From contig JBGPKU010000004.1 of NCBI GenBank assembly GCA_041486085.1, positions 3,231 to 67,230 on the forward strand: DNA of 64,000 nucleotides, written 5' to 3'. The stretch is from Candidatus Limnocylindria bacterium (GTDB lineage Bacteria > Chloroflexota > Limnocylindria > P2-11E). This document shows, piece by piece, positions 3,584 through 16,901 of the stretch. Position numbers and translations under genes: made by a program. Within the stretch, counting starts at the first letter, position 1; each line of letters starts with the position of its first letter. The notes beneath the pieces were generated by a model. The model made no database searches. It was given only the letters and a program-made list of their open reading frames with translations, and was not told the DNA's origin.

Positions 3584-6003
3584 GCGAGCTCAGCATCCTC
3601 GGGCGGCGGCTTCCGAAGGTGAACGCGTGGGCGCACCTCACCGGAAGCGCGCGCTACGCCGACGACATCCATCTGCCGCGCATGCTCTACGGACGCCTGC
3701 TCCGCTCTACGCGGCCGCACGCGCGCATCCTGCGCGTCGACACCTCACGCGCGCTCGCGCACCCCGGCGTCGTCGCCATCGTGACCGGTGAGGACATGCC
3801 AGAGAAGATGGGCATCATGCCCTCGACGCAGGACGAGACGGCGCTCGCGCTCGACAAGGTGCGGTATGTCGGCGAGCCGGTGGCCGCCGTCGCCGCCCTC
3901 GACGAGGACGCCGCTTTCGACGCGCTCTCGCTCATCGACGTCGAGTACGAGGATCTCGAGCCGATCTTCACGATCGAGGAGGCCCTGCAGCGGGAGGATG
4001 TGAAGATCCACGATGAGGCCAAGCGCGCCAACGTCTTCAAGGAGGTGCACCTCTCCTTCGGCGATCTCGCCGCCGGATTCACCGCGGCTGACCACGTGCG
4101 CGAGGACTGGTTCTTCTTCGAAGGCAACACCCACGCGCCCCTCGAGTCGCACTCGTGCGTCGCGTTCTTCGACGCGGACGGGAAGCTCACGCTCTGGACG
4201 AGCACCCAGGTGCCCCACTACGTCCACCGCGAGCTCGAGAAGGTGCTCGGGCTTCCGCGCAGCCAGATCCGGGTGATCGCGACTCCGAACGGGGGCGCAT
4301 TTGGCGGGAAGTCCGACCCGTTCGGCCACGAGTTCGCGGCGTCGCTGCTGTCGATGCGCACGCGGCGGCCCGTGAAGATCACGCTCGACCGCGAGGAGGT
4401 CTTCTACGCGCACCGCGGGCGGCATCCGGTGAAGATGCGAATCAAAACGGGCGTAAAGAAAGACGGCGAGATCACGGCCGTCGAGTTCCAGAGCTATCTC
4501 GACGGCGGGGCGTACGCCTCGTACGGCATCGCGACCACGTACTACACCGGCGCGCTGCTGACGGTCACGTACCGGGTGCCGGCCTACAAGTTCGACGGCG
4601 TTCGCGTGTACACGAACAAACCCCCGTGCGGCCCGAAGCGCGGGCACGGGACGACCCAGCCGCGCTTCGCGTTCGAGTGCCAGCTCGACAAGATCGCCAC
4701 GGACCTCGGGTTCGACCCGATCGAGTACCGCCTCCGCATCCTGCAGCCCGCGAACAGCCGGACGGTGAACGAGCTGCGCGTCACGTCGATGGGCCTTGGG
4801 GAATGCCTGACCGCGGTCCGCAGCGCCACCGGCTGGGAGCGCAAGAAGGCCGGGCTGCCCAAAGGAAAGGGCATCGGCGTCGCCGGAAGCGCCTACATCT
4901 CCGGCGCGGGCCTGCCGATCTACTGGAACGAGATGCCCCACTCCGGCGCCGAGATCCGGATCGACCGCGGCGGCGGCGTGACGGTGATGTGCGGCACGAG
5001 CGAGATTGGCCAGGGCTCCGACAACATGCTCGCCGCGATCACCGCGGAGACGCTCGGGATCCTGCCGGAGGACGTCCACGTCGTGTCGGGCGACACGAGC
5101 CTCACGCCGGTGGATCTCGGCTCGTATTCGAGCCGCGTCACGATGATGGCCGGCAACGCGACCAGGAACGCGGGGCTGAAGCTCCGCGCGCAGCTCTTCG
5201 AGATCGCGTCGACCAAGCTCGATGTCCCGGCCGAGCGCCTGGCCGCCGCGTACCGGAAGATCTACGACCTCAAGGATCCGAGCACCTCGATGAGCTTCAT
5301 CGAGGCCGCCAATCTGGCCGAGGCCAAGTTCGGCACGCTGGTCGCGGCTGGGTCGTACCGGCCGCCGGCCGGCATCGGCGGCAGCTACAAGGGCGCCGGG
5401 GTCGGGCCATCGCCCGCCTACTCGTACCAGGCCGCGGTCGCCGAGGTCACCGTCGACCTCGACACCGGGCAGCTCACCGTCGACAAGATCACCACAGCCC
5501 ACGACTGCGGCCGCGCCCTGAACCCCGCGAACGCCGAGGGGCAGGTCGAGGGATCGGCCTACATGGGCTACGGCGAGATCGCGGTGGAGGAGCAGGTCTT
5601 CCGCGGCGGACTGCACAAGAAGCCGAGCCTCCTCGACTACAAGCTGCCCACGAGCCTCGACACGCCGGAGCTCGAGGCCATCCTCGTCGAATCCATCGAC
5701 AGCGAGGGCCCCTACGGCGCGAAGGAAGCCGGTGAGGGGCCGTTGAACCCGGTGATCCCGGCGATCGCGAACGCGGTGTACGACGCCATCGGCGTTCGCT
5801 TTGACGAGACGCCGATCACCGCGGAGAAGATCCTTGACGCTCTCGGCAAGCGCGACAACCGCGGTGTGTTGAAGGACCGCATCGGCCCAGATGGCTTGTC
5901 AGACGCACGGTCTGGCGCCAAAGCCGCAATGAGACGACTGAAAGCGTCGACGGACACGCGCGACGCGCGAGAGCGAAAGAAGACCGAGGCTCCGGCGGAA
6001 TAG
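3580..6003 (+). CDS. Molybdopterin-binding large subunit, xanthine dehydrogenase family (CoxL/CutL-like), cluster 1
   Basis: 807 aa; a/b-hammerhead plus Moco-binding domains; no CODH-specific AYRCSFR loop, so a generic hydroxylase rather than form I CO dehydrogenase. Confidence 0.9.
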   Translation: MSELSILGRRLPKVNAWAHLTGSARYADDIHLPRMLYGRLLRSTRPHARILRVDTSRALAHPGVVAIVTGEDMPEKMGIMPSTQDETALALDKVRYVGEPVAAVAALDEDAAFDALSLIDVEYEDLEPIFTIEEALQREDVKIHDEAKRANVFKEVHLSFGDLAAGFTAADHVREDWFFFEGNTHAPLESHSCVAFFDADGKLTLWTSTQVPHYVHRELEKVLGLPRSQIRVIATPNGGAFGGKSDPFGHEFAASLLSMRTRRPVKITLDREEVFYAHRGRHPVKMRIKTGVKKDGEITAVEFQSYLDGGAYASYGIATTYYTGALLTVTYRVPAYKFDGVRVYTNKPPCGPKRGHGTTQPRFAFECQLDKIATDLGFDPIEYRLRILQPANSRTVNELRVTSMGLGECLTAVRSATGWERKKAGLPKGKGIGVAGSAYISGAGLPIYWNEMPHSGAEIRIDRGGGVTVMCGTSEIGQGSDNMLAAITAETLGILPEDVHVVSGDTSLTPVDLGSYSSRVTMMAGNATRNAGLKLRAQLFEIASTKLDVPAERLAAAYRKIYDLKDPSTSMSFIEAANLAEAKFGTLVAAGSYRPPAGIGGSYKGAGVGPSPAYSYQAAVAEVTVDLDTGQLTVDKITTAHDCGRALNPANAEGQVEGSAYMGYGEIAVEEQVFRGGLHKKPSLLDYKLPTSLDTPELEAILVESIDSEGPYGAKEAGEGPLNPVIPAIANAVYDAIGVRFDETPITAEKILDALGKRDNRGVLKDRIGPDGLSDARSGAKAAMRRLKASTDTRDARERKKTEAPAE

Positions 6004-7011
6004 ATGCTGCGCCTTCCGAAGTTCCACTACGTCGCACCGCCCACGCTCGCCGATGCGATCCGCGTGCGCACCGAGCATCTCGAGACGTCGATGTACGTCG
6101 CGGGCGGCACCGACGTCTACCCCAAGATGAAGCGCCGGCAGTTCCAGCCCGAGGTGGTCATCTCGCTCGGACGCGTGGTCGGCGGCGAGATACGCGACGG
6201 CACGCTCGCTGCGCTCGCCGAACAGGGGCCCCTACCCCTGGGCCTGCGCGTCGGCGCCGGTGCCACGCTCACCGCGGTCGCCGCCCATCCGAAGGTCCGC
6301 GACGCCTATCGCGCGCTCAGCGAGGCCGCCGCCCTCGTGTCGACGCCACAGTTGCGCAACATGGGCACCATCGGCGGCAACGTGTGTCTCGACACGCGCT
6401 GCAACTGGTACGACCAATCCCTCTTCTGGCGCACCGCCGAAGGCTTCTGCATGAAGACGCACGCCGAGGTGGTGTGCCGCGTGGCTCCGTCGAGCGCGCG
6501 CTGTCTCGCGGTGGCGAGCGCCGACACCGTGCCCGCGCTCATCGCACTCGGCGCGACCATCCATGTCGTGGGACCGGGCGGCGAGCGCGACGTGGATCTC
6601 GCGGAGTGCTATCGCGAGGATGGCATCCGCTACCTGACGCTGGCGCCCGCAGAGGTCGTGACCGAGATCCGCCTCCCGCCGAGCGACGGCTGGCGAAGCA
6701 CGTATCTGAAACAGCGAGATCGCAATGCGTTCGACTTCCCCATCGCCGGGGTCGCCGCGGCGGTGAAGTGGGGCGGCGGCGTGGTCGTCGACGCGCGCGT
6801 CGCCATCACCGCGCTCGGATCACGTCCGGTGGCGGTCGACGCGAGCGCGCTTCGCGGCACGAAGCTCGACGACGACGCGATCACCGCCGTGGCCGACGCG
6901 ACGCACAAGGCCGCCCGACCGATGGACAACACCTCGGGCACGATCAGCCAGCGCAAGCGCGCCGCGCGCGTGTTCGCCGAGCGCGCGCTCCGGTCGCTCA
7001 GGGATGCGTGA
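6004..7011 (+). CDS. FAD-binding medium subunit, xanthine dehydrogenase family (CoxM/CutM-like), cluster 1
   Basis: 335 aa; GGTD..P and GTIGGN FAD-binding motifs of molybdopterin-dehydrogenase FAD subunits. Confidence 0.9.
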   Translation: MLRLPKFHYVAPPTLADAIRVRTEHLETSMYVAGGTDVYPKMKRRQFQPEVVISLGRVVGGEIRDGTLAALAEQGPLPLGLRVGAGATLTAVAAHPKVRDAYRALSEAAALVSTPQLRNMGTIGGNVCLDTRCNWYDQSLFWRTAEGFCMKTHAEVVCRVAPSSARCLAVASADTVPALIALGATIHVVGPGGERDVDLAECYREDGIRYLTLAPAEVVTEIRLPPSDGWRSTYLKQRDRNAFDFPIAGVAAAVKWGGGVVVDARVAITALGSRPVAVDASALRGTKLDDDAITAVADATHKAARPMDNTSGTISQRKRAARVFAERALRSLRDA

Positions 7012-7591
7012 GCCTCTTCGCTCCATCGCGATCGTGACGGCCGCCGGATCCGCCGAGAGGTTCGGCGGACGAAAGCTGCTCACGAGGATCGACGGCGACC
7101 CGCTCCTCGATCACACCATCGGCGCGCTCCTCGACGGCGGCGTGAGCGAGGTCATCGTCGTCGTCGGTACGGCTGCGCGCTCCGAGCTCGAGCGCGACGT
7201 CAACGCGATGAACGACGCGCGCGTGCGACCGGTCGAGAATCCGGACCCGTCCAGAGGCATGTTCTCGTCGATCCAGGAAGGCGTGCGGACCGCCAGCGGA
7301 GACGTGCTCCTCGTGCTGCCGGGCGACATGCCCTTCGTGAAGGCGGCGACGGTCCGCCGTGTCATCGACGAATGGGCCAAGCGACGCGGGATCGTCTCCC
7401 CGCGACACAACGGCAAGCGCGGGCATCCGGTGGCCCTGCCGCTCGAGCTCAGAGACGAGATCCTCGCGACGAGCCCGACGTCGAACCTGCACGAGGTGAT
7501 CAGGAAGCACCTCGACCTGCGCACCGACCTCGACGTCGACGATCCCGGCGTGAACCGCGACGTCGATCGCCCGGAGGACCTCGCGGGCTAG
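7004..7591 (+). CDS. mocA: MobA-like nucleotidyltransferase, probable molybdenum cofactor cytidylyltransferase (MocA)
   Basis: IAIVTAAGSAERFG ... LPGDMPFV NTP-transferase motifs; overlaps the stop of the FAD subunit, as in coxSLM-mocA arrangements that supply the MCD cofactor. Confidence 0.7.
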   Translation: MREPLRSIAIVTAAGSAERFGGRKLLTRIDGDPLLDHTIGALLDGGVSEVIVVVGTAARSELERDVNAMNDARVRPVENPDPSRGMFSSIQEGVRTASGDVLLVLPGDMPFVKAATVRRVIDEWAKRRGIVSPRHNGKRGHPVALPLELRDEILATSPTSNLHEVIRKHLDLRTDLDVDDPGVNRDVDRPEDLAG

Positions 7592-8493
7592 GGCGCGGTG
7601 ACGAACCCCGCCGCGCGCGACAGCGTGTCGGCCATGTCGGCCGGGTGTTCGTGGCCAAGCCCAGGACGGACGTCGATGTGCGCGCGCACCCCGTGGCGCG
7701 AAAGCAGGTCGAAGAGCTCCTGCGTGCGGGCGTAGCTGGGATCCTGATCGCCGACGACGAGATACACGCGAAGCATCTTTCCCGCGCCACCTTCCACCAG
7801 ATCGCGGAGCTCATCGCCCCGCGGGATCCACGCGCCAACCAGGATGACGCCGCGCACCTTCACGCGACGGGTGAGGGCGAGCGCGATCGCCTGCAGCCCC
7901 CCCATCGAGAAACCCGCGAGCACGATCCGGCCGACGTCGACCTGCGTCGCGCGCTTCACCCGATCGATATGCGCGGTGATCTCCGTGACCACTCGCTCGC
8001 GATCGTTCCAGGTGTAGGCCTCGGGCGTCATACCGATCTCGCTCGATTGCGGCACGGCGACGACCCACCGCGCGTCCGCCAGCGTCGACCAGTGCGGCGC
8101 GGTCACACGCGCGTTCGCGTTGTTGCCGTGAAGCGCGACCAGCAGCGGATAGCCGAACGCGTCCGGAAGATCGTCCGGCAGGGCGAACATGAGGTGCGGG
8201 CGCGCCGCGGCGGCGTCCTCCGCGTAGCGCGCGTCAGCGCGCCTCACGATGTCCTGGAACCGCGGCAGCGGATGAAGGCTCGCAAGGCGAGGGTCCTGCT
8301 CGAGCCAGTCGCGCCGGTAGCGGCACCTTTCCTGGAGTGCGCGTTCCAGCGCGTCGAGCGCGTCGGCGACCCGTCCCGCTTCCGCGTATTGAGAAGCCTC
8401 GACCAGGCGCGCGAGGCCCAGCTGGAGCGGATTCGCGCGTAGGCGCTCCAACTCCAGCATCGTTCCATTTTCGCAGGCATGGGCCGTTTCCAT
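7588..8493 (-). CDS. Alpha/beta hydrolase (phospholipase/carboxylesterase family)
   Basis: GFSMGG nucleophile elbow, HG oxyanion region and C-terminal His; start may be the internal MLELERL. Confidence 0.7.
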   Translation of the reverse strand: METAHACENGTMLELERLRANPLQLGLARLVEASQYAEAGRVADALDALERALQERCRYRRDWLEQDPRLASLHPLPRFQDIVRRADARYAEDAAAARPHLMFALPDDLPDAFGYPLLVALHGNNANARVTAPHWSTLADARWVVAVPQSSEIGMTPEAYTWNDRERVVTEITAHIDRVKRATQVDVGRIVLAGFSMGGLQAIALALTRRVKVRGVILVGAWIPRGDELRDLVEGGAGKMLRVYLVVGDQDPSYARTQELFDLLSRHGVRAHIDVRPGLGHEHPADMADTLSRAAGFVTAP

Positions 8494-8572
8494 GCGCGTT
8501 GACGGGCGTTCCTGAGCAGGCTAACTTCCGTCCGGGTATCCGGCAGCCAATCGAGCGACAAGGACGACGCCC

Positions 8573-9361
8573 TTGAGTCACGGGCCCAGCCAGCACGAAG
8601 AGCGTTCCGATGGCGCTGCCGACGTCTCGCGGCGCGATCTGCTGCGCACCGCCGCACCCATCGTGGCCTTCATCGCGCTCGAGGCGATCGGCGGTCTGGG
8701 GGCCTCCAGCCCGAAGACGCCGCGCGCGACGCAAGTGTCGCAGGGCGTGATCTTCCCCGATCCGACGCTCTGCATCGGCTGCCTCACGTGCGAGGTCATC
8801 TGCTCCCAGGTGCACAAGCAGCAGGGGCTCTCCGACGTCCCGCGGATCCGGATCTTCAATGACCCGGTGACGAAAGTGGATCCGGTGATCCAGGCGGCGT
8901 ACCCGGACCGCGGCCAGTTCCACCAGGAGCCCTGCCTGCAGTGCCCGACCGCCGAGTGCCTCTACGTTTGCCCGGTCGATGCCCTTCAGGTCGAGCCAAA
9001 GACTGGCGCGCGCTTCATCAAAGAGGAGACCTGCGTGTCGTGCGGCCGCTGCAACGAGGCCTGCATCTTCCCCGTCTCGAGCGAGGCCACCGCCACGAAC
9101 CAGCTGACCTTCAATCAGCATTCGCGGATCACCTACGACGCGGACAAGGACACCTTCGCGAAGTGCGACCTGTGCTACTGGCGCGAGGGTGGACCGGCGT
9201 GTGTCGAGCGCTGCCCCATCAACATCCGCATTCGGCAGGGCGTCGTGAAGGTCGACGCAGGACGCCTGTGCCTTTCGGCACCTGTCGCGGACAAAGAGAC
9301 CTGGGGCAAGCTCCGAGCGTTCCAGACGTTCGAGGGCAGCCCGGCGAACGGAAAGGCTTGA
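8573..9361 (+). CDS. Tat-exported 4x[4Fe-4S] ferredoxin-type subunit (HybA/NrfC/DmsB-like electron-transfer subunit)
   Basis: Twin-arginine signal SRRDLLRTAAPIVAF; four complete Cys clusters (CIGCLTCEVIC, CLQCPTAECLYVCP, CVSCGRCNEACIFP, CDLCYWREGGPACVERCP). Confidence 0.85.
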   Translation: MSHGPSQHEERSDGAADVSRRDLLRTAAPIVAFIALEAIGGLGASSPKTPRATQVSQGVIFPDPTLCIGCLTCEVICSQVHKQQGLSDVPRIRIFNDPVTKVDPVIQAAYPDRGQFHQEPCLQCPTAECLYVCPVDALQVEPKTGARFIKEETCVSCGRCNEACIFPVSSEATATNQLTFNQHSRITYDADKDTFAKCDLCYWREGGPACVERCPINIRIRQGVVKVDAGRLCLSAPVADKETWGKLRAFQTFEGSPANGKA

Positions 9362-9366
9362 CGGTC

Positions 9367-10257
9367 GTGCGCGCCGTCGCGCTGCTCATCGTCCTCGTCG
9401 GAGTCGCCGGCGGGACCGCCGCCGGCCTGGCGATCCTCGCGCAGGTGGGAACGACCCAGCCATTCGGCAACGAGCTGTCGGACAACTTCGTCTTCGTCCG
9501 GACGATCCCGTTCATCCTCGCGACCGGCGTCGCGTTCGGCCTGCTCGGAGCAGCGCTGGCGCGGAACGCGCATCACACGAAGCACGGCCACGTACGCCGC
9601 TTCAGCCGCGCCACGGTGATCGGACACTGGGTGATCACGGTGGGCTTCCTCCTGGCGCTGCCGACCGGCGTCTGGCAGTACCTCGGCGGCATCATCGACG
9701 TGAGCGCGCCGGTCCCCCTGTACCTGATCTACCGCGTTCACTACCTGGGCGCCGCGATCATCCTGCTGTCCGTGGCGTACTTCCTCACCTACTGGTGGAT
9801 GAGCGGCCATCGCGAGCTCCTCGTGCCCAGCGGTCAGTGGCGGCATCACCTCCGCGGCTTCGCCCACGAGCTGCCGCCATCACTCGGTCGGATGGTCGCG
9901 CGCATCTTCCGGCTGCACCTCGGCGGCCGAGCAGCGACAGACGGCCAGTTCACGTTCTACGAGACGGCGTTCTCGTTCCCCACGTGGACATTCGGCCTCG
10001 GGCTCATCACGGTCACTGGCCTGGTGAAGGCCCTTCGCTACGTCATCGAGGTCCCAGGACCGGTCCTCTGGGGGGCCTCGACATTGCATGTGGCGGCGAT
10101 GGTGCTGCTGATGTTGAAGGTGCTCGATCACATGCGGTACGTCTTCGCGCGGTGGCCGCTCATGGTGGCCATGACGACGACGTGGGTCACTGATCACTAC
10201 GCGCGCACGCATTTCCCGGGCTGGCGGCATCGGTCCGATAAGTCGGAGGCCGCGTGA
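9367..10257 (+). CDS. Membrane cytochrome b subunit (Ni/Fe-hydrogenase / formate dehydrogenase gamma, FdnI/HyaC-like)
   Basis: Starts at GTG/TTG overlapping the ferredoxin stop; 4-5 TM helices with conserved His pairs (HHTKHGH...IGHW; ...HYLGAA). The listed ORF start at 8941 is an out-of-frame overlap artefact. Confidence 0.7.
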   Translation: MRAVALLIVLVGVAGGTAAGLAILAQVGTTQPFGNELSDNFVFVRTIPFILATGVAFGLLGAALARNAHHTKHGHVRRFSRATVIGHWVITVGFLLALPTGVWQYLGGIIDVSAPVPLYLIYRVHYLGAAIILLSVAYFLTYWWMSGHRELLVPSGQWRHHLRGFAHELPPSLGRMVARIFRLHLGGRAATDGQFTFYETAFSFPTWTFGLGLITVTGLVKALRYVIEVPGPVLWGASTLHVAAMVLLMLKVLDHMRYVFARWPLMVAMTTTWVTDHYARTHFPGWRHRSDKSEAA

Positions 10258-10472
10258 GACGCGTCGTCGCGTTCCTCGGCATCCTGTGGGCAGGGCTCAA
10301 CCTGATCGTCGGGGCGTTCTTCGTCACCGGATCGTTCACGGCGACGACGGCCGCGAAGGAGGGCATCGCCGCGCAGCTGGCCCTGCTGACCGGCGGCTCG
10401 CTGATCGGCATCTTCGGCGCACTGCTCGCGCGGTCATCATGGAACCTGTTCATGCATCGGACCGGTCAATGA
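10254..10472 (+). CDS. Small two-TM membrane protein
   Basis: 72 aa; GTGA overlap with the cytochrome b stop suggests translational coupling. Confidence 0.45.
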   Translation: MRRVVAFLGILWAGLNLIVGAFFVTGSFTATTAAKEGIAAQLALLTGGSLIGIFGALLARSSWNLFMHRTGQ

Positions 10473-11587
10473 GCGCCAACGCCGGCAGGCTGTTGATCGG
10501 CCTCCGCATCATCCTGCTCGCGCTGACGCTGGGCTCGTTCACGACGCTCGTCACATCCGCGGCGTCGCCCATCAGGCAGCTGACGGACACGACCGACATG
10601 TCGAACCTGCGCCCGACGTGGAGCCCCAACGGGAAGCGCATCGCCTACCAGAGCAACCGTGACGGCACGTTCCACATCTACGTGATGGACGCCGACGGCG
10701 CCAACACCAAGCAGATCTCGAGCGGCGGCGACGTGGACGATCGCCACCCCGCGTGGAGCCCGGATGGCAACGCCATCGCCGTCGACTCGGGCGACGCCAC
10801 GCACCGTGAGATCTGGATCATCGACATCTCCAGCCAGCGCCGCACGCAGGTCACGAAGACCGGCCAGATCGCGACGTTCCCGAGCTGGAGTCCCGACGGC
10901 AAGCGGCTCGCGTTCTACGTCTACAACGCCGGCACGATGGACGTCTGGACGGCCGCACGAGATGGCAGCGGCTCCGTCCAAATGACCAAGGAGCTCGCGA
11001 GCGAGAAGAACAGCCAGTGCACCTTCGCGTGCCACTCGGTGCGCTGGTCGCCCGACAACACGCGCATCGCATTCTCGGACGGCGATCTCTCGCGCGTGCT
11101 GGTGACCTCGGCGGTCCGACCCGGCGAGTCCACCGCCATCTCGCCGGAGGGTGAGCGAAGCCACTTCCCGGTGTTCCTCTCCAACGGGCAGATCCTGTAC
11201 ATCACCGAACATCTCTCGATCGACAAGAGCTGGACCGACCTGTGGCTCCAGCAGCCCGAGTCGACGACCCAGCGAGACCAGCTGGCGCAGGGGATCCTCG
11301 CGCAGGGGCCTTTCGAATTCTCGGCTGACGGATCGCAGCTGCTCTTCGCGTCGCCCCGTAGCGGCAACTTCGAGATCTACGCGGTCACGCTCGACGCTGC
11401 TGGAATAGCGGCGATGGCCACGAATCCGAACGCGGTGACCATCGTTCGTCCGACAAAGGCGTCCCAGCCGCTCCTACCTGGCCTGTCGCCCGAGGCCTAC
11501 GTCTTCCTGGGCCTCGGGTTCTTCGCGCTCGTCGCCGAGGTCGCATATCGCGTCCTGCGCCGGCGCCGCCGCGCCTCCGCTTCCTAG
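10469..11587 (+). CDS. TolB-like periplasmic beta-propeller protein (PD40/WD40-like repeats) with N- and C-terminal TM anchors
   Basis: ATGA overlap with the upstream gene; repeated WSPDG(K)R(I/L)A(F/Y) PD40 motifs; C-terminal hydrophobic helix followed by RRRRR. Confidence 0.75.
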   Translation: MSANAGRLLIGLRIILLALTLGSFTTLVTSAASPIRQLTDTTDMSNLRPTWSPNGKRIAYQSNRDGTFHIYVMDADGANTKQISSGGDVDDRHPAWSPDGNAIAVDSGDATHREIWIIDISSQRRTQVTKTGQIATFPSWSPDGKRLAFYVYNAGTMDVWTAARDGSGSVQMTKELASEKNSQCTFACHSVRWSPDNTRIAFSDGDLSRVLVTSAVRPGESTAISPEGERSHFPVFLSNGQILYITEHLSIDKSWTDLWLQQPESTTQRDQLAQGILAQGPFEFSADGSQLLFASPRSGNFEIYAVTLDAAGIAAMATNPNAVTIVRPTKASQPLLPGLSPEAYVFLGLGFFALVAEVAYRVLRRRRRASAS

Positions 11588-11910
11588 CCGTCCTCGTCGC
11601 GTTCCCGACCCCGCAGCAGCTCGCGCCTCGAGATCGGTTCACGGCGCTCTCGCTCCTTGCGCTCCTGCTCGGCGAGCCACGCGGCGCGCTTGGGCGAGGA
11701 GGCAGCCGGATCCTGTCCGTCGTTCCCCTCGTCGGGTTGCGAGCCCGGTGCCGTCTGCCGTGGCGCGCGCGCCGCGAGGTCGGCGCGCAGGGCGGTGAGC
11801 TCGTCGAGGATCAGCCCGAGCTCGCTCGCGTGGAGCTCCTTGAACGCCCGGATCTGCTGTTCGAGGCGCGCGACGCGCGTCTCGAGCTTCGCGCGCTCCG
11901 ATTCGTCCAT
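11584..11910 (-). CDS. Hypothetical coiled-coil protein
   Basis: 108 aa with Glu/Arg/Leu heptad-like composition; no competing ORF; weak. Confidence 0.3.
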   Translation of the reverse strand: MDESERAKLETRVARLEQQIRAFKELHASELGLILDELTALRADLAARAPRQTAPGSQPDEGNDGQDPAASSPKRAAWLAEQERKERERREPISRRELLRGRERDEDG

Positions 11911-12302
11911 CAGAGGATCTCCGTCCCGCGGTGGGTGACTATCTTCGGCGCGCTCGGGTCCCTGCGCTCCGCGGTCATCGGAAACCCGCGGGCGAGCTCC
12001 GCCAACAGCTTGTCCGCGGCGACCGCCGCTGTCTGACGCGTCGTCACCATGAGGATCGCGTCGCCGCCCAAGCGCTCGGCACGATCGCGCAGCGCCTGGG
12101 ATACGACCAGGACGTCGTAGTGGTCAGGCAGCTTCTCGAGCGGCTCGAGCCGCACGCGGATGTTCCAGCCCGCCTTGCGGACCGAGTGCTCGAAACGGCG
12201 AAAGATCTGAAGGTCCTCCGCCGGAAGCTCCTCGCGCGAGAACGCGCACACGATCGTGCGGATGACCCTTGGCTCTGGCGCTTCGCTCACGGTTGACCTC
12301 AC
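11910..12302 (-). CDS. Hypothetical protein (possible PTS-EIIB-like/Rossmann-like fold)
   Basis: 130 aa; N-terminal IVCAFS followed by VLVVSQA...ILMVTT strands is reminiscent of phosphotransfer IIB folds; low certainty. Confidence 0.35.
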   Translation of the reverse strand: MRSTVSEAPEPRVIRTIVCAFSREELPAEDLQIFRRFEHSVRKAGWNIRVRLEPLEKLPDHYDVLVVSQALRDRAERLGGDAILMVTTRQTAAVAADKLLAELARGFPMTAERRDPSAPKIVTHRGTEIL

Positions 12303-12351
12303 ATGTGCGCTTCAGTACCGTCGCCGGAGTCCCGAGAAGAGAGAGGATGGC

Positions 12352-13227
12352 ATGGACGACAAGGCCGCGTTGGAGCTCGCAAAGCTCGCCGCGTTTCGTG
12401 CGGGGCAAGTGGCCATCGCTCGCCTGGGCAACCCCGGCTTCCTGAGCTGGCGTGGCCGACGCAACGTCATCGTCGGAAGCGCCCTCGAGGTCCAGGAGGT
12501 CATCGAGAGCCTCCTGCTGCAGGAGTGTCCGGGTGACGCGATCCTGTCCGAAGAGGGTCCCGAGGACGACCCCATCCCGGTCGACGCGGACCGGCTCTGG
12601 ATCGTCGATCCGATCTGCGGCAGCCTGAACTTCGCTCAGGGAATACCGATCTTCGCGGTCTCGATCGCGCTCCGGGTGGCCGGTCAGCTGCGGCTCGGCG
12701 TCGTGTACGACCCGATGCGCGACGAGATGTTCGCCGCGCAGGTCGGCGAGCCGGCGACGCTGAACGACGAGCACATCAGCGTCCGAACCACCTCTTTCGG
12801 GCCGGAGTTCTGGGATCAGGCGTGGGTCGGCTGCGATCTGCCGCACGATGGACCGCTGCGCGACGAGGCCCTGCGCGTGTACGACCTCACGTCGCGCGAG
12901 GTGCTACACCACGTGACGCTCGGCTCGCCGGCCCTGGGCATCTGCTACGTCGCCGCAGGACGACTACACGCGTACTGGAACCTCGAGCTGCGGCCCTGGG
13001 ATGTCGCCGCGGCCGGCCTGATCGCGCGGCAGGCCGGCGGTCAGATCACCGACGGTGAAGGCGGGTCGTGGATCCATTCGGATGGCGCCTACGTCGTGGC
13101 CGACGCGGTGTCCCACCAGTGGGCGCTGAAGATCATCAAGACGGTCAAGCAGCAGGCGCGCGAGCGAATCGCGACCGACGCGCGGTTCGACGAGGACGAG
13201 CGAGCTCACCGCGCGCCGGCGGAATGA
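12352..13227 (+). CDS. Inositol monophosphatase family protein (SuhB/ImpA/CysQ-like)
   Basis: Starts at the internal ATG MDDKA; WIVDPICGSLNF and LSEEG metal-binding motifs. Confidence 0.85.
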   Translation: MDDKAALELAKLAAFRAGQVAIARLGNPGFLSWRGRRNVIVGSALEVQEVIESLLLQECPGDAILSEEGPEDDPIPVDADRLWIVDPICGSLNFAQGIPIFAVSIALRVAGQLRLGVVYDPMRDEMFAAQVGEPATLNDEHISVRTTSFGPEFWDQAWVGCDLPHDGPLRDEALRVYDLTSREVLHHVTLGSPALGICYVAAGRLHAYWNLELRPWDVAAAGLIARQAGGQITDGEGGSWIHSDGAYVVADAVSHQWALKIIKTVKQQARERIATDARFDEDERAHRAPAE

Positions 13228-13349
13228 TGAACATACGCTGAGCGCGCGGCGGCTGTGCCGCCGCGAGCGAATCCCAAAGCGAGCGAAGCGAGGCGATGAG
13301 CCGCCGGCCGCCCGAAGGGCAGGCCCAGGCGAATGCGAGGAGAAACACA

Positions 13350-13385: not shown

Positions 13386-13398
13386 GCTTGTTGTTCGA

Positions 13399-14394
13399 CT
13401 AGCCTGCTGCGTCGAGCAGCGTGCGCTCGATGAGACCGGCTGCGACGTCGACCTTGTAGGAGTTCAGGCTCATCGGACGGGCCACGGTGCGGATCTGCGC
13501 CGCAGCGGCCTTCGCCGTCGCCTTGATGTCCTTGCCCTTGAGGGCGTCCTCGACGACCTTGGCACGGTAGGGCACCGGTGAGACGCCGCCGAGGGTGACG
13601 CGGCCGTCCTTCCAGTTGCCGCCGTCCATGGTGAAGGCCACGGCCACGGAGATCAGAGCGAAGTCGTAGACCTGCCGGTCCTTGAGCTTGCTCCAGCCGA
13701 ACTTCGTTCCCGACGCCGGGGCCGGAATGGTGACGTGGGTCATGAACTCACCGGGCTTGAGGACGTTCTCGCGGAGGACATCCACGCGTGGTCCGGTGAA
13801 GTAGTCGTCGAACGCGACCGTCTTGTCGCCATTTGCGCCCGTGATCTTCGCGGAGGCGCCCAGGGCGAGCAGCGCGGTCGACGTGTCGGAGGGGTGGACG
13901 ATGTAGCAGAGCTCGCCACCGATGATCGCGTGGTAGCGGTTGTCACCGGTAACGGCGTAGCAGAAGTCGCCGCCCTTCTTGTAGCAGTTGAAGTCCTCGC
14001 CCCGGAAGAACCAGCAGCGCGGTCGCTGGTTGATGTTCCCTCCGAGCGTGCCGAAGTTGCGGATGAGCGGTGAGGCGACGCTCTGCGCCGCCTGCCCGAG
14101 CAGACCGAACTTGTCCTGGACGACCTTGTTGTCGATGACGTCGGTCAGCGTGGTGGCCGCGCCGATCGTGAGCGAGCCGCCGCTCTCGCTGATCCCGACC
14201 ATGTCCTTGATCGTGGTGATGTCCACCAGCACCTCAGGGATCGCGAGTCCGTTGCCGTGGACCCAGTCCTTCATGAGGCCACCGACGAGATCGCTGCCGC
14301 CCGCGACCACGCGGGCATTCTTCGCGGCGTTCGCCTTCAGGAGGTCAACGGCTTCTTTGATCGTGTTCGCGTCGTACAGCTCAAACGCTCTCAT
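13399..14394 (-). CDS. FAD-binding subunit, xanthine dehydrogenase family, cluster 2 (PaoB-like)
   Basis: 331 aa; AGGSDL and GTLGGN motifs. Confidence 0.9.
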   Translation of the reverse strand: MRAFELYDANTIKEAVDLLKANAAKNARVVAGGSDLVGGLMKDWVHGNGLAIPEVLVDITTIKDMVGISESGGSLTIGAATTLTDVIDNKVVQDKFGLLGQAAQSVASPLIRNFGTLGGNINQRPRCWFFRGEDFNCYKKGGDFCYAVTGDNRYHAIIGGELCYIVHPSDTSTALLALGASAKITGANGDKTVAFDDYFTGPRVDVLRENVLKPGEFMTHVTIPAPASGTKFGWSKLKDRQVYDFALISVAVAFTMDGGNWKDGRVTLGGVSPVPYRAKVVEDALKGKDIKATAKAAAAQIRTVARPMSLNSYKVDVAAGLIERTLLDAAG

Positions 14395-14409: not shown

Positions 14410-16890
14410 CTAGCTTCCCTTCAGCGCCGCGAGCAGCTTGTCTCGGGTCAGAGGCATGTCGGTGATCCACACACCGACCGCGTTGTAGACCGCGTTGACG
14501 ATCGCCGGCGCGGCCGGGCCCATCGGGGGCTCGCCCATACCGTGCGCGCCGAATGTTCCGTAGGCCTTCGCCTTCTCGACGATGATCACCTCGGCCAGCG
14601 GGGCATCCTTGATGGACAGCGGTCGGTAGTCGAGCAGGTTCGCGTTGAGTGGAAGTCCGGTCGCCTTGTCGACGAGGAGCTCCTCGGTGAGGACCGCGCC
14701 GACGGACATGACCACGCCGCCTTCGACCTGCTGCCTGATGGAGAACGGGTTGATCGCCTTGCCGACGTCGTGTGCGGCGACGTACCGCGTGATCTTGACC
14801 GTGCCCGTGACGGTGTCGACCTCGACCTCGGCCGCGTGCGCGGCGAGCGCCACCTGCTCCCAGGTGGTCGGCTGAAGGTAGTTCGATACGCCGACGATCG
14901 AGGTCGCCTTGAACTGCACGACGTCCGACAGCTTCAGCGTCTGCTTCGGGTCGCTCTTCAGGGAGACGATGCCGTCGACCAGGTCGACGTCGCTCGCTGT
15001 CACGCGGGTAGTGACCGGCGGGGTCGCCTTGGTGAAGTTGTCATTGAACTTGCGGGCGCCCCAGTCGAGTACCTGGTTGCGCGCGTCGATCGCGGCCTCG
15101 TACATGCCGCGCCCACCGGTGTTGGTCATGCGGCTTCCGTTGGTGCCGCCGGTGTCGGTGGTGTTGTCGGTATCGATGTACGGCGTGATCGTGATCTGCG
15201 AGAGCGGAATGCCAAGCGCCTCCGCCGCGATCATGACCATGTGGGTCCGTTGGCCGGAGCCGATGTCCGTCGTGCCCGACACGGCCTGCACGCTTCCGTC
15301 GTTGCTGATCAGGATCTGGCCGGTCGACGGGTTGCTGCCGGCGCCGTGGCTGCAGAGGTGCACGGCCATGCCGACACCGTGATACACGCCGGGCCGGACC
15401 AGCTTGGCCTTCGGTGCGTGCCAGACCTTGCTCCAGTTCATCGCGTCACGGACCTGCGTGATGACCTCGCGTGTCCCGACGTTGCTGAACGGCCGCTTGG
15501 TGTCCGGGTTGCCGACCTCGTTGAGGTTCGCGAGCCGGAACGCGACCGGATCCATGTTGATCGCGTAGGCGGCCTTGTCCATCGTCGTCTCGAGCGCGAA
15601 CGTGCCGTTCGGGTGCGAGACGCAGCGGTACGGGCCTGACTTGTAGCTGTTGGTCATGACGTCGATCGCTTCGAGCTTCAGGTTCGGGATCGTGTAGAGG
15701 TTCTGCATGTTGACCCACGAGCCGTTGGCAGCGCTGGCGCGCTGCGCGCCGACGTTGGCGATGACCTTGAACTGGCCGAACTGGATCTTGCCGTCCCGGT
15801 TCACGCCGAGCTTCATCTCGTCGCGGAACTCGTTGCGGTGCGTCCTGGTGACGAAGTCCTCGTACCGGGTGTAGTTGTTCTTGATCGGGCGACCGGTGAC
15901 CTTGGAGAGGATCGCGGCGTGCACCTCGGACAGGTCGATGCCGCTTCGGTAGCCATAGCCGGATCCCAGATAGCCCGTCTGGAGCACGCGGACCTTGTTC
16001 TGCGGGAGCTTGAGGGCCTGCGAGAGGCCGGAGCGGGTCCCGTGCGCGTGCTGGTTGGTGTAGGTCATGTTGAGCTTGTCGCCGTCCCAGTAGGACAGCG
16101 AGTTCGTGATCTCGAGAGCGACGTGCTGCTCCACCGACTTGTGCGCCACGAGGTCGACGGTCACGTCGGCCTTCGCGTTGGTGGGGTCGCCCCGGACCAG
16201 GGGCGCCGTGACGGCGATCGTGGTCCCGTCGAGGGTGCTCGTGAACTGCTTCGGCGTCGACGACTTCATGGCCTCCAGCATGTCCGTGACGTGCGGAAGG
16301 ACCTCGTACTCCACCTTGATCAGGCGCATCGCTTCGTCCGCGATGTGCTCGCTGTCAGCGGCGATCACCGCGATCGGCGCCCCGACCTCGAAGACCTCCT
16401 CGCTGAAGATGAATCGTGTGGGCTGGGCGGAGCCGATGAAGACGTCCTTGTACTCCTCCGGAAGGTTCCCGCGGTGAAGGATCTTGGCGACGCCGGGCAT
16501 CTTCTCGGCAGCGCTGGTGTCGATCGACCTGATCTTCGCGTGCGGGTACTTGCTGCGAAGCGTTCGCATGAAGAGCATGCCCGCGATCCGCAGGTTCTCC
16601 GTGTACGTGCCCTGGTTCGTGACGATCCCATAGCCCTGGATCCGGGCGATGTCCGTGCCGAGGATCGTGAACGGGCGGAACGGGGGGAGCTCGGCGGTCG
16701 GGGCGCTCTCACGCCCGCCGCCGGGCAGCTTGTGCCCGTACATGGCGACGATCGGTGCGATGGTCTCGGATTGCTCGCCGACCATCTCCTGCCACGCCGG
16801 ATCCTGCGCGAGGTCGTTCCAGTCGGAGTCGGAGAGGCTGGCCGCGTAGGCGGGATCTTGGACGACGCGTACCGCTTCGATGTGTGCCAT
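14410..16890 (-). CDS. Molybdopterin-binding subunit, xanthine dehydrogenase family, cluster 2 (PaoC-like)
   Basis: Trimmed to the internal ATG MAHIEAV preceded by ggagggg Shine-Dalgarno; about 826 aa aldehyde-oxidase/XDH hammerhead plus Moco domains. Confidence 0.9.
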   Translation of the reverse strand: MAHIEAVRVVQDPAYAASLSDSDWNDLAQDPAWQEMVGEQSETIAPIVAMYGHKLPGGGRESAPTAELPPFRPFTILGTDIARIQGYGIVTNQGTYTENLRIAGMLFMRTLRSKYPHAKIRSIDTSAAEKMPGVAKILHRGNLPEEYKDVFIGSAQPTRFIFSEEVFEVGAPIAVIAADSEHIADEAMRLIKVEYEVLPHVTDMLEAMKSSTPKQFTSTLDGTTIAVTAPLVRGDPTNAKADVTVDLVAHKSVEQHVALEITNSLSYWDGDKLNMTYTNQHAHGTRSGLSQALKLPQNKVRVLQTGYLGSGYGYRSGIDLSEVHAAILSKVTGRPIKNNYTRYEDFVTRTHRNEFRDEMKLGVNRDGKIQFGQFKVIANVGAQRASAANGSWVNMQNLYTIPNLKLEAIDVMTNSYKSGPYRCVSHPNGTFALETTMDKAAYAINMDPVAFRLANLNEVGNPDTKRPFSNVGTREVITQVRDAMNWSKVWHAPKAKLVRPGVYHGVGMAVHLCSHGAGSNPSTGQILISNDGSVQAVSGTTDIGSGQRTHMVMIAAEALGIPLSQITITPYIDTDNTTDTGGTNGSRMTNTGGRGMYEAAIDARNQVLDWGARKFNDNFTKATPPVTTRVTASDVDLVDGIVSLKSDPKQTLKLSDVVQFKATSIVGVSNYLQPTTWEQVALAAHAAEVEVDTVTGTVKITRYVAAHDVGKAINPFSIRQQVEGGVVMSVGAVLTEELLVDKATGLPLNANLLDYRPLSIKDAPLAEVIIVEKAKAYGTFGAHGMGEPPMGPAAPAIVNAVYNAVGVWITDMPLTRDKLLAALKGS

Positions 16891-16901
16891 TTCTACCCCT
16901 C

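What the first reader, a model, noticed from the sequence alone, without database searches (positions are those of the whole stretch)
8573..11587. Orphan Tat 4x[4Fe-4S] ferredoxin, cytochrome b, small TM protein and TolB-like propeller operon with no catalytic subunit
A HybA/NrfC-like four-cluster ferredoxin with its own twin-arginine signal is translationally coupled (overlapping stop/starts) to an FdnI/HyaC-type cytochrome b, a 72-aa membrane protein and a PD40 beta-propeller protein anchored at both ends. Such ferredoxin plus cytochrome b pairs normally flank a hydrogenase, formate dehydrogenase or DMSO-reductase-family catalytic subunit, and none is present. About 3 kb away is a Tat-exported, PaoABC-like periplasmic molybdo-hydroxylase (cluster 2, 13399-17891). 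The module could be the missing membrane quinone-linked partner for that enzyme, or for the exported selenoproteins.
Basis: partly seen in the sequence, partly recalled or inferred. Interest (0 to 1): 0.6.

Follow-up and report, generated by a model that had tools for sequence, protein, structure and literature searches.

The report
Membrane electron module for exported molybdoenzyme
These four genes encode a ferredoxin, a two-haem cytochrome b and two helper membrane proteins that most likely wire an exported molybdenum enzyme to the membrane quinone pool, a pairing not described before for this enzyme family.

Summary
The four translationally coupled genes are real. They are a Tat-signal ferredoxin with four [4Fe-4S] motifs, an FdnI-type di-haem cytochrome b with two extra N-terminal helices, a 72-aa two-helix peptide, and a membrane-anchored PD40 propeller.

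The module is not truly orphan. In all eight related Limnocylindria places with enough upstream sequence it directly follows a xanthine-oxidase-family operon (IclR, 2Fe-2S, Mo, FAD, MocA).

In more distant relatives (cytochrome b about 29-40% identical) the ferredoxin and cytochrome b are the distal genes of one operon. That operon starts with a Tat-signal PaoA-like subunit, a Mo subunit and a FAD subunit, and often includes TatA and XdhC. These enzymes group with the window's Tat-exported enzyme at 13399-17891.

New here: the propeller carries an invariant Q-C-x-F-x-C-H (CX3CH) motif, a possible haem c site.

No biochemistry exists. The direction of electron flow, the substrate and the role of the propeller are inferred.

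Verdict: a new variant of known kinds, of moderate to high interest.

The parts
8573..9361 (+). Tat-signal ferredoxin, 262 aa, four [4Fe-4S] motifs, HybA/NrfC/HycB-like, no C-terminal membrane helix
   Evidence: The twin arginine and all 16 cluster Cys are invariant in 13 orthologues. A public gene call is identical.
9358..10257 (+). Di-haem cytochrome b, 299 aa: an FdnI-type four-helix core plus two extra N-terminal helices. Proposed haem ligands are H90/H258 (cytoplasmic side) and H128/H244 (outer side).
   Evidence: FdnI, E = 5.5e-18; topology by K/R distribution; AF2 pLDDT 88.6; 1kqf_C is the only real fold match.
10254..10472 (+). 72-aa protein with two predicted membrane helices; found only in Limnocylindria relatives (62-80 aa)
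   Evidence: No family match. The same position holds TatA genes in the Ardenticatenaceae-like operons, but the two are not similar.
10469..11587 (+). PD40 beta-propeller protein, 372 aa, with an N-terminal signal peptide and a C-terminal membrane helix plus RRRRR
   Evidence: AF2 pLDDT 87.8; TolB and S9-peptidase propellers.
11018..11035 (+). Codons for C184-T-F-A-C188-H189 (CX3CH), preceded by invariant Q183; a possible haem c attachment or metal site
   Evidence: Present in 120 of 120 orthologues, and 98 of 120 have no other Cys. Q183, C184, F186, C188 and H189 are invariant across Limnocylindria, the Ardenticatenaceae-like loci and L025. The motif lies in a loop after a short helix.
11584..11910 (-). 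108-aa coiled-coil protein ending in SRRELLRG; belongs to the conserved gene set
11910..12302 (-). 130-aa protein of unknown family, always paired with the coiled-coil gene in Limnocylindria
12352..13227 (+). Inositol-monophosphatase-family protein that travels with the system in all lineages
13399..14394 (-). FAD subunit (M2) of the Tat-exported enzyme. It keeps the four Cys that align with those of PaoB and with the motif said to bind the PaoB [4Fe-4S].
   Evidence: 5y6q_B, 5g5g_B and 1rm6_B; Cys aligned.
14410..16974 (-). Molybdenum subunit (L2) of the Tat-exported enzyme; the start codon is uncertain
   Evidence: (HcrA 225 bits, PaoC 186 bits).
16902..17891 (-). 2Fe-2S subunit (S2) with a Tat signal (ITRRSFLIGAGAG) and a fused C-terminal HMA-like domain
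18133..19239 (+). XdhC/PaoD-type cofactor-insertion chaperone
   Evidence: It follows the cytochrome b and TatA genes in L010, L091 and L092.
2352..7591 (+).
   Evidence: L1 matches HcrA 1rm6_A at E = 1.8e-187. M1 matches HcrB at 208 bits with the Cys aligned. Adjacent to the module in all Limnocylindria places that reach far enough.
7588..8493 (-). Alpha/beta-hydrolase gene inserted between MocA and the ferredoxin; absent at this position in the relatives
   Evidence: compare.

Best explanation
**What it is**
The four genes encode the membrane end of an extracytoplasmic molybdo-flavoenzyme:quinone oxidoreductase.

**Proposed electron path**
1. A Tat-exported enzyme of the PaoABC/HcrCAB branch of the xanthine oxidase family oxidises its substrate outside the cytoplasmic membrane. 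In this window that enzyme is most likely S2-L2-M2 at 13399-17891.
2. Electrons run from Mo through two [2Fe-2S] clusters and FAD to the extra [4Fe-4S] of the FAD subunit.
3. They pass to the Tat-exported four-cluster ferredoxin.
4. They enter the outer haem of the FdnI-type cytochrome b, cross the membrane to the inner haem, and reduce menaquinone near the cytoplasmic face. As in formate dehydrogenase-N, this would conserve energy.

**Accessory subunits**
The 72-aa peptide and the membrane-anchored PD40 propeller are accessory: a tether or scaffold, and possibly a haem c relay through the CX3CH motif.

**Shown versus inferred**
- Shown: the gene anatomy, the cofactor motifs, the homologies and the conserved gene linkage.
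- Inferred: physical contact between the enzyme and the ferredoxin, the direction of flow, quinone reduction, and the propeller's role.
For: **(1) Parts**
- Tat motif and 16 cluster Cys are invariant in the ferredoxin.
- The cytochrome b profile matches FdnI at E = 5.5e-18 with four His aligned, and the K/R distribution puts the N and C termini inside, as in FdnI.

**(2) Linkage**
- Excluding the window, every one of the 14 loci or places in the near family (two-extra-helix cytochrome b) with at least 3.5 kb of sequence upstream of the ferredoxin has xanthine-oxidase-family Mo and FAD subunit genes upstream on the same strand. These are L002, L003, L005, L006, L008, L009, the P0055 place, L010, L012, L091, L092, L014, L016 and L024.
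- In L014 the FAD subunit, ferredoxin and cytochrome b genes are 3 to 40 bases apart or overlapping.

**(3) Same compartment**
- The 2Fe-2S subunit carries a Tat signal in L010 (both copies), L012, L016, L024, L091 and L092. TatA genes follow the cytochrome b in L010, L011, L012, L091 and L092.

**(4) Which enzyme in the window**
- The operon-linked M and L subunits score higher against window M2 and L2 than against M1 and L1: M 265-308 bits versus 101-139, L 360-411 versus 314-322.
- They cluster with M2 and L2 in neighbour-joining trees.

**(5) Same gene set, rearranged**
- The L010, L091 and L092 operons and window 8573-19239 hold the same families: Tat-S, L, M, IMPase-like, HMA-like, ferredoxin, PD40, cytochrome b, XdhC and a small coiled-coil protein.

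**(6) A docking point exists**
- M2 keeps four Cys that align with Cys of PaoB. A motif of four conserved Cys that binds an extra [4Fe-4S] is described as characteristic of PaoABC (bioRxiv 10.64898/2026.07.15.738685).
- The terminal acceptor of E. coli PaoABC was reported as unidentified (PMC3958847).
Against: - In the window and in all Limnocylindria relatives, the Tat enzyme is on the other strand, 2-7 kb away. The immediate co-directional neighbour is the signal-less HcrCAB-like enzyme S1-L1-M1.
- S1 is more similar than S2 to the operon-linked S subunits (54% versus 42-44%).
- There are no expression, interaction or activity data.
- The neighbour-joining trees have no support values.
- The PD40 gene is missing from L014 and L024, so it cannot be essential to the ferredoxin and cytochrome b function.
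- The direction of electron flow is open. The closest solved relative of L1, L2 and L012_L is 4-hydroxybenzoyl-CoA reductase, which, from established knowledge, runs in the reductive direction from ferredoxin.
Confidence: 0.62

Rival explanations
1. In Limnocylindria the partner is the adjacent HcrCAB-like enzyme S1-L1-M1 (3023-7011). Either it is exported by hitch-hiking on the ferredoxin's Tat signal, or it somehow exchanges electrons with the module across the membrane.
For: - It is adjacent and co-directional in all eight Limnocylindria places that reach far enough, with MocA-to-ferredoxin gaps of 117-312 bases.
- M1 keeps the Cys that align with the Cys-rich insert of HcrB, which holds its extra [4Fe-4S]. 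An enzyme of this type is built to talk to a ferredoxin (established knowledge of 4-hydroxybenzoyl-CoA reductase; title cited in PMC3958847).
- A signal-less catalytic subunit next to a Tat ferredoxin and a related cytochrome b is seen in L093 (AOR-family enzyme), so hitch-hiking partners may occur in this module family.
- HcrA-likeness does not imply a cytoplasmic location, because the Tat-linked L012_L also scores 419 bits to HcrA.
Against: - There is no Tat signal on S1, L1 or M1, whereas the ferredoxin's Tat motif is invariant.
- M1 and L1 sit on a separate branch from the operon-linked enzymes.
- In this window a minus-strand hydrolase gene splits the two units, so they are not one transcript here.
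Confidence: 0.2
2. The same complex runs in reverse. Menaquinol is oxidised by the cytochrome b, and electrons are pushed outward, helped by the membrane potential, through the ferredoxin into the molybdoenzyme. The enzyme then acts as a reductase, for example by dehydroxylating an aromatic compound.
For: - The closest solved relative of L1, L2 and the operon-linked L012_L is the alpha subunit of 4-hydroxybenzoyl-CoA reductase. [quoted passage not shown]
- FdnI-type cytochromes can work in either direction in principle. A 2026 preprint title reports a 'twin-heme-mediated reverse redox-loop' (listed, not read).
Against: - Four low-potential clusters fed from menaquinol would need energy input.
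- The Ardenticatenaceae-like operons also carry c-type cytochromes, which fits oxidative electron disposal better.
- Sequence alone does not settle the direction.
Confidence: 0.2
3. The propeller is the business end. The ferredoxin and cytochrome b serve the PD40 protein, whose CX3CH site (haem c or a metal) reacts with an external substrate or partner. The neighbouring molybdoenzymes only share a pathway or regulon.
For: - Q-C-x-F-x-C-H is invariant in 120 of 120 orthologues and across three lineages.
- The L010 and L025 versions add a canonical CxxCH.
- The four genes are translationally coupled in the window.
Against: - The ferredoxin and cytochrome b persist without any PD40 gene in L014 and L024, still fused to the Mo-enzyme operon.
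- The PD40 fold matches only TolB and peptidase propellers, none of them redox enzymes.
- No conserved distal His or Met is present.
Confidence: 0.1

Closest known systems
FdnH/FdnI of E. coli formate dehydrogenase-N (PDB 1kqf)
   Same: An exported four-cluster ferredoxin is paired with a four-helix, di-haem cytochrome b. All four haem-ligand His are aligned, and the inside/outside topology is the same. By analogy, the quinone site lies near the cytoplasmic haem.
   Different: - The catalytic partner is a xanthine-oxidase-family Mo/FAD enzyme, not a Mo-bisPGD formate dehydrogenase.
- The ferredoxin has its own Tat signal and lacks FdnH's C-terminal membrane helix.
- The cytochrome b has two extra N-terminal helices.
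- There are extra subunits (the 72-aa peptide and the PD40 protein).
- The cytochrome b family is small: 82 representatives at E <= 0.001 among 1.84 billion.
E. coli periplasmic aldehyde oxidoreductase PaoABC (PDB 5g5g)
   Same: - Tat signal on the 2Fe-2S subunit.
- FAD subunit keeps four Cys that align with Cys of PaoB, where a four-Cys motif binds the extra [4Fe-4S].
- MCD-type cofactor genes (MocA) and an XdhC/PaoD chaperone lie nearby.
   Different: - The pao operon is not known to include a ferredoxin or cytochrome b (from memory), and its acceptor was reported as unidentified (PMC3958847).
- L2 is only distantly PaoC-like (186 bits; HcrA scores higher).
- S2 carries a fused HMA-like domain.
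4-hydroxybenzoyl-CoA reductase HcrCAB of Thauera aromatica (PDB 1rm6)
   Same: It is the best solved match of L1 (628 bits), L012_L (419 bits), L2 (225 bits) and M1 (208 bits). It also has the Cys-rich insert in the FAD subunit and a ferredoxin partner.
   Different: - HcrCAB is cytoplasmic and takes electrons from a small soluble ferredoxin.
- Here the linked ferredoxin is Tat-exported and sits on a cytochrome b.
- CoA-ester substrates are implausible outside the cell.
Periplasmic xanthine-oxidase-family enzymes with other acceptors, e.g. nicotine dehydrogenase NdhAB with pseudoazurin
   Same: A Tat-exported Mo hydroxylase hands electrons to a dedicated periplasmic carrier encoded next to it (PMC7688666). 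Cupredoxin and cytochrome c genes also occur in some of the related loci.
   Different: Those carriers are soluble copper or haem c proteins. None is a four-cluster ferredoxin with a cytochrome b membrane module.
E. coli ydhYVWXUT-type clusters (Tat ferredoxin YdhX, cytochrome b YdhU, AOR-like YdhV); recalled from memory, not tested
   Same: A Tat ferredoxin and a cytochrome b serve a signal-less aldehyde-oxidoreductase-like enzyme. The related locus L093 shows this arrangement with a member of the same cytochrome b family.
   Different: The catalytic subunit belongs to the tungsten/molybdenum AOR family, not the xanthine oxidase family. No PD40 protein is involved.
TolB
   Same: Six-bladed PD40 propeller fold.
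   Different: - The window protein scores 119 bits against the TolB model cut-off of 343, and matches only the propeller part.
- It lacks the TolB N-terminal domain.
- It has a C-terminal membrane anchor and an invariant CX3CH loop.

Membership tests
FdnI/HyaC-type di-haem cytochrome b (Pfam PF01292) | Sequence match to the family | tested here: met
   The family profile matches FdnI 1kqf_C at E = 5.5e-18 over the whole of FdnI. Many orthologues carry PF01292. The window protein alone gave no Pfam hit at E <= 0.01 and only a weak NCBIfam FdoI hit, E = 6e-6.
FdnI/HyaC-type di-haem cytochrome b (Pfam PF01292) | Four conserved His that ligate two stacked b haems | tested here: met
   H90, H128 and H244 are invariant, and H258 is at least 90% conserved, in 28 sequences down to 22% identity. 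All four are invariant in A5 and align to the FdnI haem-ligand His.
FdnI/HyaC-type di-haem cytochrome b (Pfam PF01292) | Four-helix core with N and C termini in the cytoplasm | tested here: met
   The AF2 model has six long helices, and FdnI is the top fold match (TM 0.65 on the target). K/R-rich loops 69-86 and 146-211 and the tail are placed inside. The two extra N-terminal helices are a departure from the family.
FdnI/HyaC-type di-haem cytochrome b (Pfam PF01292) | Haem b actually bound; quinone reactivity | not testable with these tools
   Needs spectroscopy of the expressed protein.
NrfC/HybA/FdnH-type four-cluster ferredoxin | Four Cys motifs for four [4Fe-4S] clusters | tested here: met
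   All 16 Cys are invariant in 13 orthologues. Best matches are HydN, HybA and NrfC in NCBIfam (all far below the family cut-offs) and HycB, HycB3 and AorA in the PDB.
NrfC/HybA/FdnH-type four-cluster ferredoxin | Twin-arginine export signal | tested here: met
   S-R-R-D-L-L followed by a mildly hydrophobic stretch. R20-R21 are invariant. The alignments to HybA, NrfC and DsrO begin at their signal peptides. No dedicated signal predictor was available, and the Pfam TAT_signal model did not fire on the window protein.
NrfC/HybA/FdnH-type four-cluster ferredoxin | C-terminal membrane helix (FdnH and HybA only) | tested here: not met
   No hydrophobic segment follows residue 77.
PaoABC-type periplasmic molybdo-flavoenzyme (for the proposed partner at 13399-17891) | Tat signal on the 2Fe-2S subunit | tested here: met
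   S2 has ITRRSFLIGAGAGAAATGAVLGG.
PaoABC-type periplasmic molybdo-flavoenzyme (for the proposed partner at 13399-17891) | Four-Cys [4Fe-4S] insert in the FAD subunit | tested here: met
   The four Cys of M2 align with Cys of PaoB 5g5g_B and 5y6q_B. The motif is described as characteristic of PaoABC in bioRxiv 10.64898/2026.07.15.738685.
PaoABC-type periplasmic molybdo-flavoenzyme (for the proposed partner at 13399-17891) | Close similarity of the Mo subunit to PaoC; aldehyde substrates | tested here: inconclusive
   L2 scores 186 bits to PaoC but 225 bits to HcrA. The substrate cannot be read from these data.
c-type cytochrome (for the PD40 protein) | Canonical CXXCH haem attachment motif | tested here: not met
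   The window protein has CX3CH (C184-T-F-A-C188-H189), not CXXCH. CX3CH is a documented atypical haem c motif (PMC6295460; bioRxiv 10.1101/2025.05.29.656830). L010 and L025 homologues add a true CXXCH.
c-type cytochrome (for the PD40 protein) | Export to the side of the membrane where haem is attached | tested here: met
   The protein has an N-terminal signal-like helix. The window also encodes a membrane-anchored CXXCH cytochrome c at 21210-21764, so the organism can mature haem c.
c-type cytochrome (for the PD40 protein) | Conserved distal axial ligand (His or Met) | tested here: not met
   No His or Met other than H189 is conserved across lineages. H232 is Tyr in the Ardenticatenaceae-like copies.
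TolB (Tol-Pal system) | Full-length match above the family cut-off, including the N-terminal domain | tested here: not met
   TIGR02800 scores 119 bits against a cut-off of 343, and only model positions 185-385 match. No tol or pal genes lie nearby.

The most novel reading that the evidence does not exclude
This would be an undescribed respiratory complex of Chloroflexota. An exported PaoABC/HcrCAB-type molybdo-flavoenzyme would be bolted onto an FdnH/FdnI-like ferredoxin and cytochrome b module, so that oxidation of aldehydes or aromatic compounds outside the cell feeds menaquinone and conserves energy. One subunit would be a PD40 beta-propeller that binds haem c through CX3CH, a kind of cytochrome I found no precedent for. 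It would also show what the extra [4Fe-4S] of PaoB-type subunits is for: an exit to an iron-sulfur partner.
Probability: 0.3. Interest if true: 0.72.

Novelty: new variant of a known kind. Interest (0 to 1): 0.6.

Why it matters
- **Open question for PaoABC.** Xanthine-oxidase-family enzymes are usually soluble and pass electrons to NAD+, O2, cytochrome c or a cupredoxin. The physiological acceptor of the periplasmic PaoABC type has been an open point (PMC3958847).
- **What a hard-wired quinone link would explain.** A link through a formate-dehydrogenase-style ferredoxin and cytochrome b would give such enzymes a bioenergetic role. It would also give the PaoB-type [4Fe-4S] a purpose.
- **Modularity.** It adds a new catalytic family to the list of enzymes that plug into the FdnHI-type module.
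- **Ecology.** The carriers are abundant, uncultured soil Chloroflexota (Limnocylindria), so the system may matter for turnover of aromatic compounds or aldehydes in soil.
- **The propeller motif.** The invariant CX3CH in a TolB-like propeller is a separate, cheaply testable oddity.

Tried and rejected
- **Pfam on the window cytochrome b and the 72-aa protein:** no hits. The cytochrome b was resolved only with a family profile against the PDB.
- **Metagenome scan with the broad alignment A1:** Repeated with the narrower A3.
- **Genome-collection scan with the single protein:** found only two close Limnocylindria loci.
- **A reading error of mine:** I first read the propeller motif as CXXCH. 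A regular-expression check showed it is CX3CH, and the claim was lowered accordingly.
- **Search for a conserved distal haem ligand in the propeller:** none found.
- **Promoter and terminator scan of 7400-12500:** nothing found, which is uninformative in this high-GC genome.
- **BLASTP between the window coiled-coil protein and the Ardenticatenaceae-like small proteins:** nothing. A small HMM gave only weak hits (E = 3.5e-6 to 0.05) that nevertheless fall exactly on the expected small ORFs.
- **The more distant ferredoxin and cytochrome b pairs (19 low-GC loci):** examined for a shared catalytic neighbour. None was found, so they say nothing about the partner here.
- **TolB membership and a Tol-Pal role:** rejected.
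- **Mo-bisPGD or [NiFe] hydrogenase partner:** none was seen in any of the related loci.
- **Literature searches:** no description of this gene combination was found.
- **'Exported selenoproteins' alternative:** not examined.

Full report
**1. What is in the sequence**

The window is high-GC (about 68%). Reading 8400-11700 directly confirms four co-directional genes with overlapping stops and starts.
- A 262-aa ferredoxin: 8573-9361, TTG start.
- A 299-aa membrane protein: 9358-10257, TTG start inside cTTGA.
- A 72-aa protein: 10254-10472, GTGA overlap.
- A 372-aa PD40 protein: 10469-11587, ATGA overlap.

Public gene calls give identical 262-aa and 372-aa products and a 299-aa cytochrome b at 100% identity.

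**2. The four proteins**

*Ferredoxin.* It has four complete [4Fe-4S] motifs. Its best family matches are HydN, HybA, NrfC and DmsB. Its best solved relatives are HycB, HycB3 and the AorA iron-sulfur subunit. Residues 18-45 align with the Tat signals of HybA, NrfC and DsrO. The twin arginine and all 16 cluster Cys are invariant in 13 orthologues from three lineages. Unlike FdnH or HybA, it has no C-terminal membrane helix.

*Cytochrome b.*
- The window protein gave no Pfam hit on its own, but many orthologues carry PF01292.
- A profile of 28 family members matches E. coli FdnI (1kqf_C) at E = 5.5e-18 over the whole of FdnI. The four haem-ligand His are aligned: H90, H128, H244 and H258.
- An AlphaFold2 model (pLDDT 88.6) has six long helices, and FdnI is its only meaningful fold match.
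- The K/R distribution puts loops 69-86 and 146-211 and the tail in the cytoplasm, the FdnI orientation, with two extra N-terminal helices.
- The family is small: 82 representatives at E <= 0.001 among 1.84 billion proteins.

*72-aa protein.* It has two hydrophobic helices and no family match. It occurs only in the closest relatives.

*PD40 protein.*
- It is a TolB-like propeller by sequence and fold. It fails the TolB family test, scoring 119 bits against a cut-off of 343 on the propeller part only.
- It has a signal-like N-terminal helix with a TSAA/SP site, and a C-terminal helix followed by RRRRR.
- New here: its only two Cys lie in Q-C-T-F-A-C-H (residues 183-189, bases 11015-11035).
- I first misread this as CXXCH. 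It is CX3CH.
- The motif is present in 120 of 120 orthologues, and 98 of those have no other Cys.
- Q, C, F, C and H are invariant across Limnocylindria, the Ardenticatenaceae-like loci and L025.
- CX3CH is a documented atypical haem c motif in ImcH, CymA and MtrA homologues (PMC6295460; bioRxiv 10.1101/2025.05.29.656830).
- The L010 and L025 homologues add a canonical CXXCH near the N terminus.
- Against a haem site: no distal His or Met is conserved, and no known haem propeller came up in the fold search.
- The window encodes a normal CXXCH cytochrome c at 21210-21764, so haem c maturation is available.

**3. The surroundings**

- L1 matches the alpha subunit of 4-hydroxybenzoyl-CoA reductase at E = 1.8e-187.
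- M1 matches the beta subunit with the Cys-rich insert aligned.

A minus-strand alpha/beta-hydrolase gene (7588-8493) separates this operon from the ferredoxin.

Downstream of the module lie:
- two small minus-strand genes (108 aa and 130 aa);
- an IMPase-family gene;
- the Tat-exported enzyme M2-L2-S2 (13399-17891, minus strand);
- XdhC (18133-19239).

M2 keeps four Cys that align with Cys of PaoB. S2 has a clear Tat signal and a fused HMA-like tail. A third, signal-less enzyme of the same family lies at 34766-38676.

**4. Related loci**

*Group A.* Cytochrome b homologues at 53-76% identity come from Chloroflexota, named Candidatus Limnocylindria where named. In the loci that reach far enough (L002, L003, L005, L006, L008, L009 and the P0055 place; L004 in part) the order is always IclR-S1-L1-M1-MocA-ferredoxin-cytochrome b-small TM-PD40, with no hydrolase. 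The two small genes, the IMPase gene and the Tat enzyme lie downstream, with variable insertions between the units: a transposase, DinB, a lytic transglycosylase or a cupredoxin.

*Group B.* Cytochrome b is about 29% identical. These are an Ardenticatenaceae MAG and similar contigs: L010, L012, L091 and L092. They form one co-directional operon:
- small coiled-coil protein, Tat-2Fe-2S, Mo and FAD subunits;
- cytochrome c, IMPase and HMA-like genes (absent in L012);
- ferredoxin and PD40 (in either order), then cytochrome b;
- TatA, and XdhC where the contig continues.

*Group C.* L014, L016, L018 and L024, from a metagenome scan. The order is Tat-S, L, M, Tat-ferredoxin, cytochrome b, contiguous and in part overlapping. 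L024 adds MocA and XdhC. L014 and L024 have no PD40 gene.

*L025.* IMPase, coiled-coil protein, ferredoxin, cytochrome b, PD40.

*Further out.*
- L093 has a related cytochrome b, a Tat ferredoxin and a signal-less AOR-family enzyme.
- Nineteen low-GC loci have only a Tat ferredoxin of about 330 aa and a four-helix cytochrome b, with no shared catalytic neighbour.

**5. Which enzyme is the partner here**

Evidence favouring the Tat enzyme S2-L2-M2:
- The operon-linked M and L subunits of groups B and C score higher against window M2 and L2 than against M1 and L1.
- They cluster with M2 and L2 in neighbour-joining trees, which carry no support values.
- The gene families in the group B operon and in window 8573-19239 are the same set, rearranged.
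- The Tat signals place S2-L2-M2 and the ferredoxin on the same side of the membrane.

Evidence favouring the adjacent enzyme S1-L1-M1:
- It is always adjacent in Limnocylindria.
- S1 is the closer match to the group B S subunits.
- M1 also has the cluster insert.
- HcrA-likeness does not prove a cytoplasmic location, because the Tat-linked L012_L also scores 419 bits to HcrA.

I therefore favour S2-L2-M2 as the partner. I keep S1-L1-M1, possibly exported by hitch-hiking on the ferredoxin, as a serious rival.

**6. Mechanism proposed**

The substrate is oxidised outside the membrane by the molybdo-flavoenzyme. Electrons leave through the PaoB-type [4Fe-4S] to the four-cluster ferredoxin, then pass through the two b haems to menaquinone on the cytoplasmic side, as in formate dehydrogenase-N.
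- Shown: motifs, homologies, topology by charge bias, and gene linkage.
- Inferred: subunit contacts, direction, quinone reduction, and any haem on the propeller.

The propeller and the 72-aa peptide are accessory, since the ferredoxin and cytochrome b occur without them.

**7. Comparison and novelty**

The parts are known kinds: an FdnH/FdnI-like module, a PaoABC/HcrCAB-like enzyme and a TolB-like propeller. The combination was not found in the literature searches.

Known acceptors of periplasmic enzymes of this family are c-type cytochromes or a cupredoxin such as pseudoazurin (PMC7688666). The acceptor of E. coli PaoABC was reported as unidentified (PMC3958847).

I rate this a new variant of a known kind, with interest 0.6.

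**8. Limits**
- No dedicated signal-peptide or membrane-topology predictor was available.
- No complex modelling could be run.
- There are no expression data.
- The taxonomy of group C is unknown.
- The selenoprotein alternative was not examined.

Noticed in passing
window 12352-13227 (+); also L001-L009, L010 (two copies), L011, L025, L091, L092: An inositol-monophosphatase-family gene without a signal peptide accompanies the Tat molybdoenzyme, ferredoxin and cytochrome b gene set in every lineage examined. In L010, L091 and L092 it sits inside the operon. Its role is unexplained.
   Followed up: partly
window about 16902-17170 (-), the C-terminal ~90 aa of the 2Fe-2S subunit S2; L003 14311-14697; L009 13688-14107; L010 7401-7766: An HMA-like domain without the CxxC metal site is fused to S2 in the window. 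In L003 and L009 it is a separate lipoprotein (LVACG lipobox) next to the Mo subunit gene, and in L010, L091 and L092 it is a separate small gene. The fusion suggests that it binds the 2Fe-2S subunit and may tether the enzyme to the membrane.
   Followed up: partly
window 11584-11910 (-): A 108-aa coiled-coil protein. The four Limnocylindria copies read (window, L002, L003, L008, L009 set) end in SRRELL, followed by R or F then G in most: a twin-arginine-like motif with no hydrophobic region after it. Weakly similar small ORFs head each Tat-S-L-M operon in L010, L011, L012, L091 and L092, and one precedes the ferredoxin in L025.
   Followed up: partly
window 11910-12302 (-): A 130-aa protein with no family match, always paired with the coiled-coil gene in Limnocylindria loci.
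   Followed up: no
window 7588-8493 (-): An alpha/beta-hydrolase gene sits between MocA and the ferredoxin. It is absent from this position in all other Limnocylindria loci, so it is a local insertion that separates the two transcription units.
   Followed up: partly
window 34766-38676 (-): A third xanthine-oxidase-family enzyme (FAD, Mo and 2Fe-2S subunits) without a Tat signal, next to a 3-hydroxyacyl-CoA dehydrogenase gene (38638-39633).
   Followed up: partly
window 21210-21764 (-): A membrane-anchored mono-haem cytochrome c (CASCH), which shows that the organism matures c-type cytochromes.
   Followed up: partly
L003 12940-13374, L009 12267-12548 (also L004, L005): A cupredoxin gene lies beside the PD40 gene in some Limnocylindria relatives but not in the window. 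It recalls pseudoazurin as the acceptor of periplasmic nicotine dehydrogenase.
   Followed up: no
L013, L028-L058 (19 loci analysed): Pairs of a Tat-signal ferredoxin (about 330 aa) and a four-helix cytochrome b in low-GC metagenome contigs. No conserved catalytic gene lies within 6 kb of the cytochrome b gene (and no xanthine-oxidase-family gene within the 10-kb flanks), so these really are orphan pairs.
   Followed up: partly
L093 131-3865: A related cytochrome b, a Tat ferredoxin and a signal-less AOR-family (AFOR_N/AFOR_C) enzyme in one operon, followed by radical-SAM and MoaA-like genes. This shows that the module is reused with a different aldehyde-oxidising enzyme family.
   Followed up: partly
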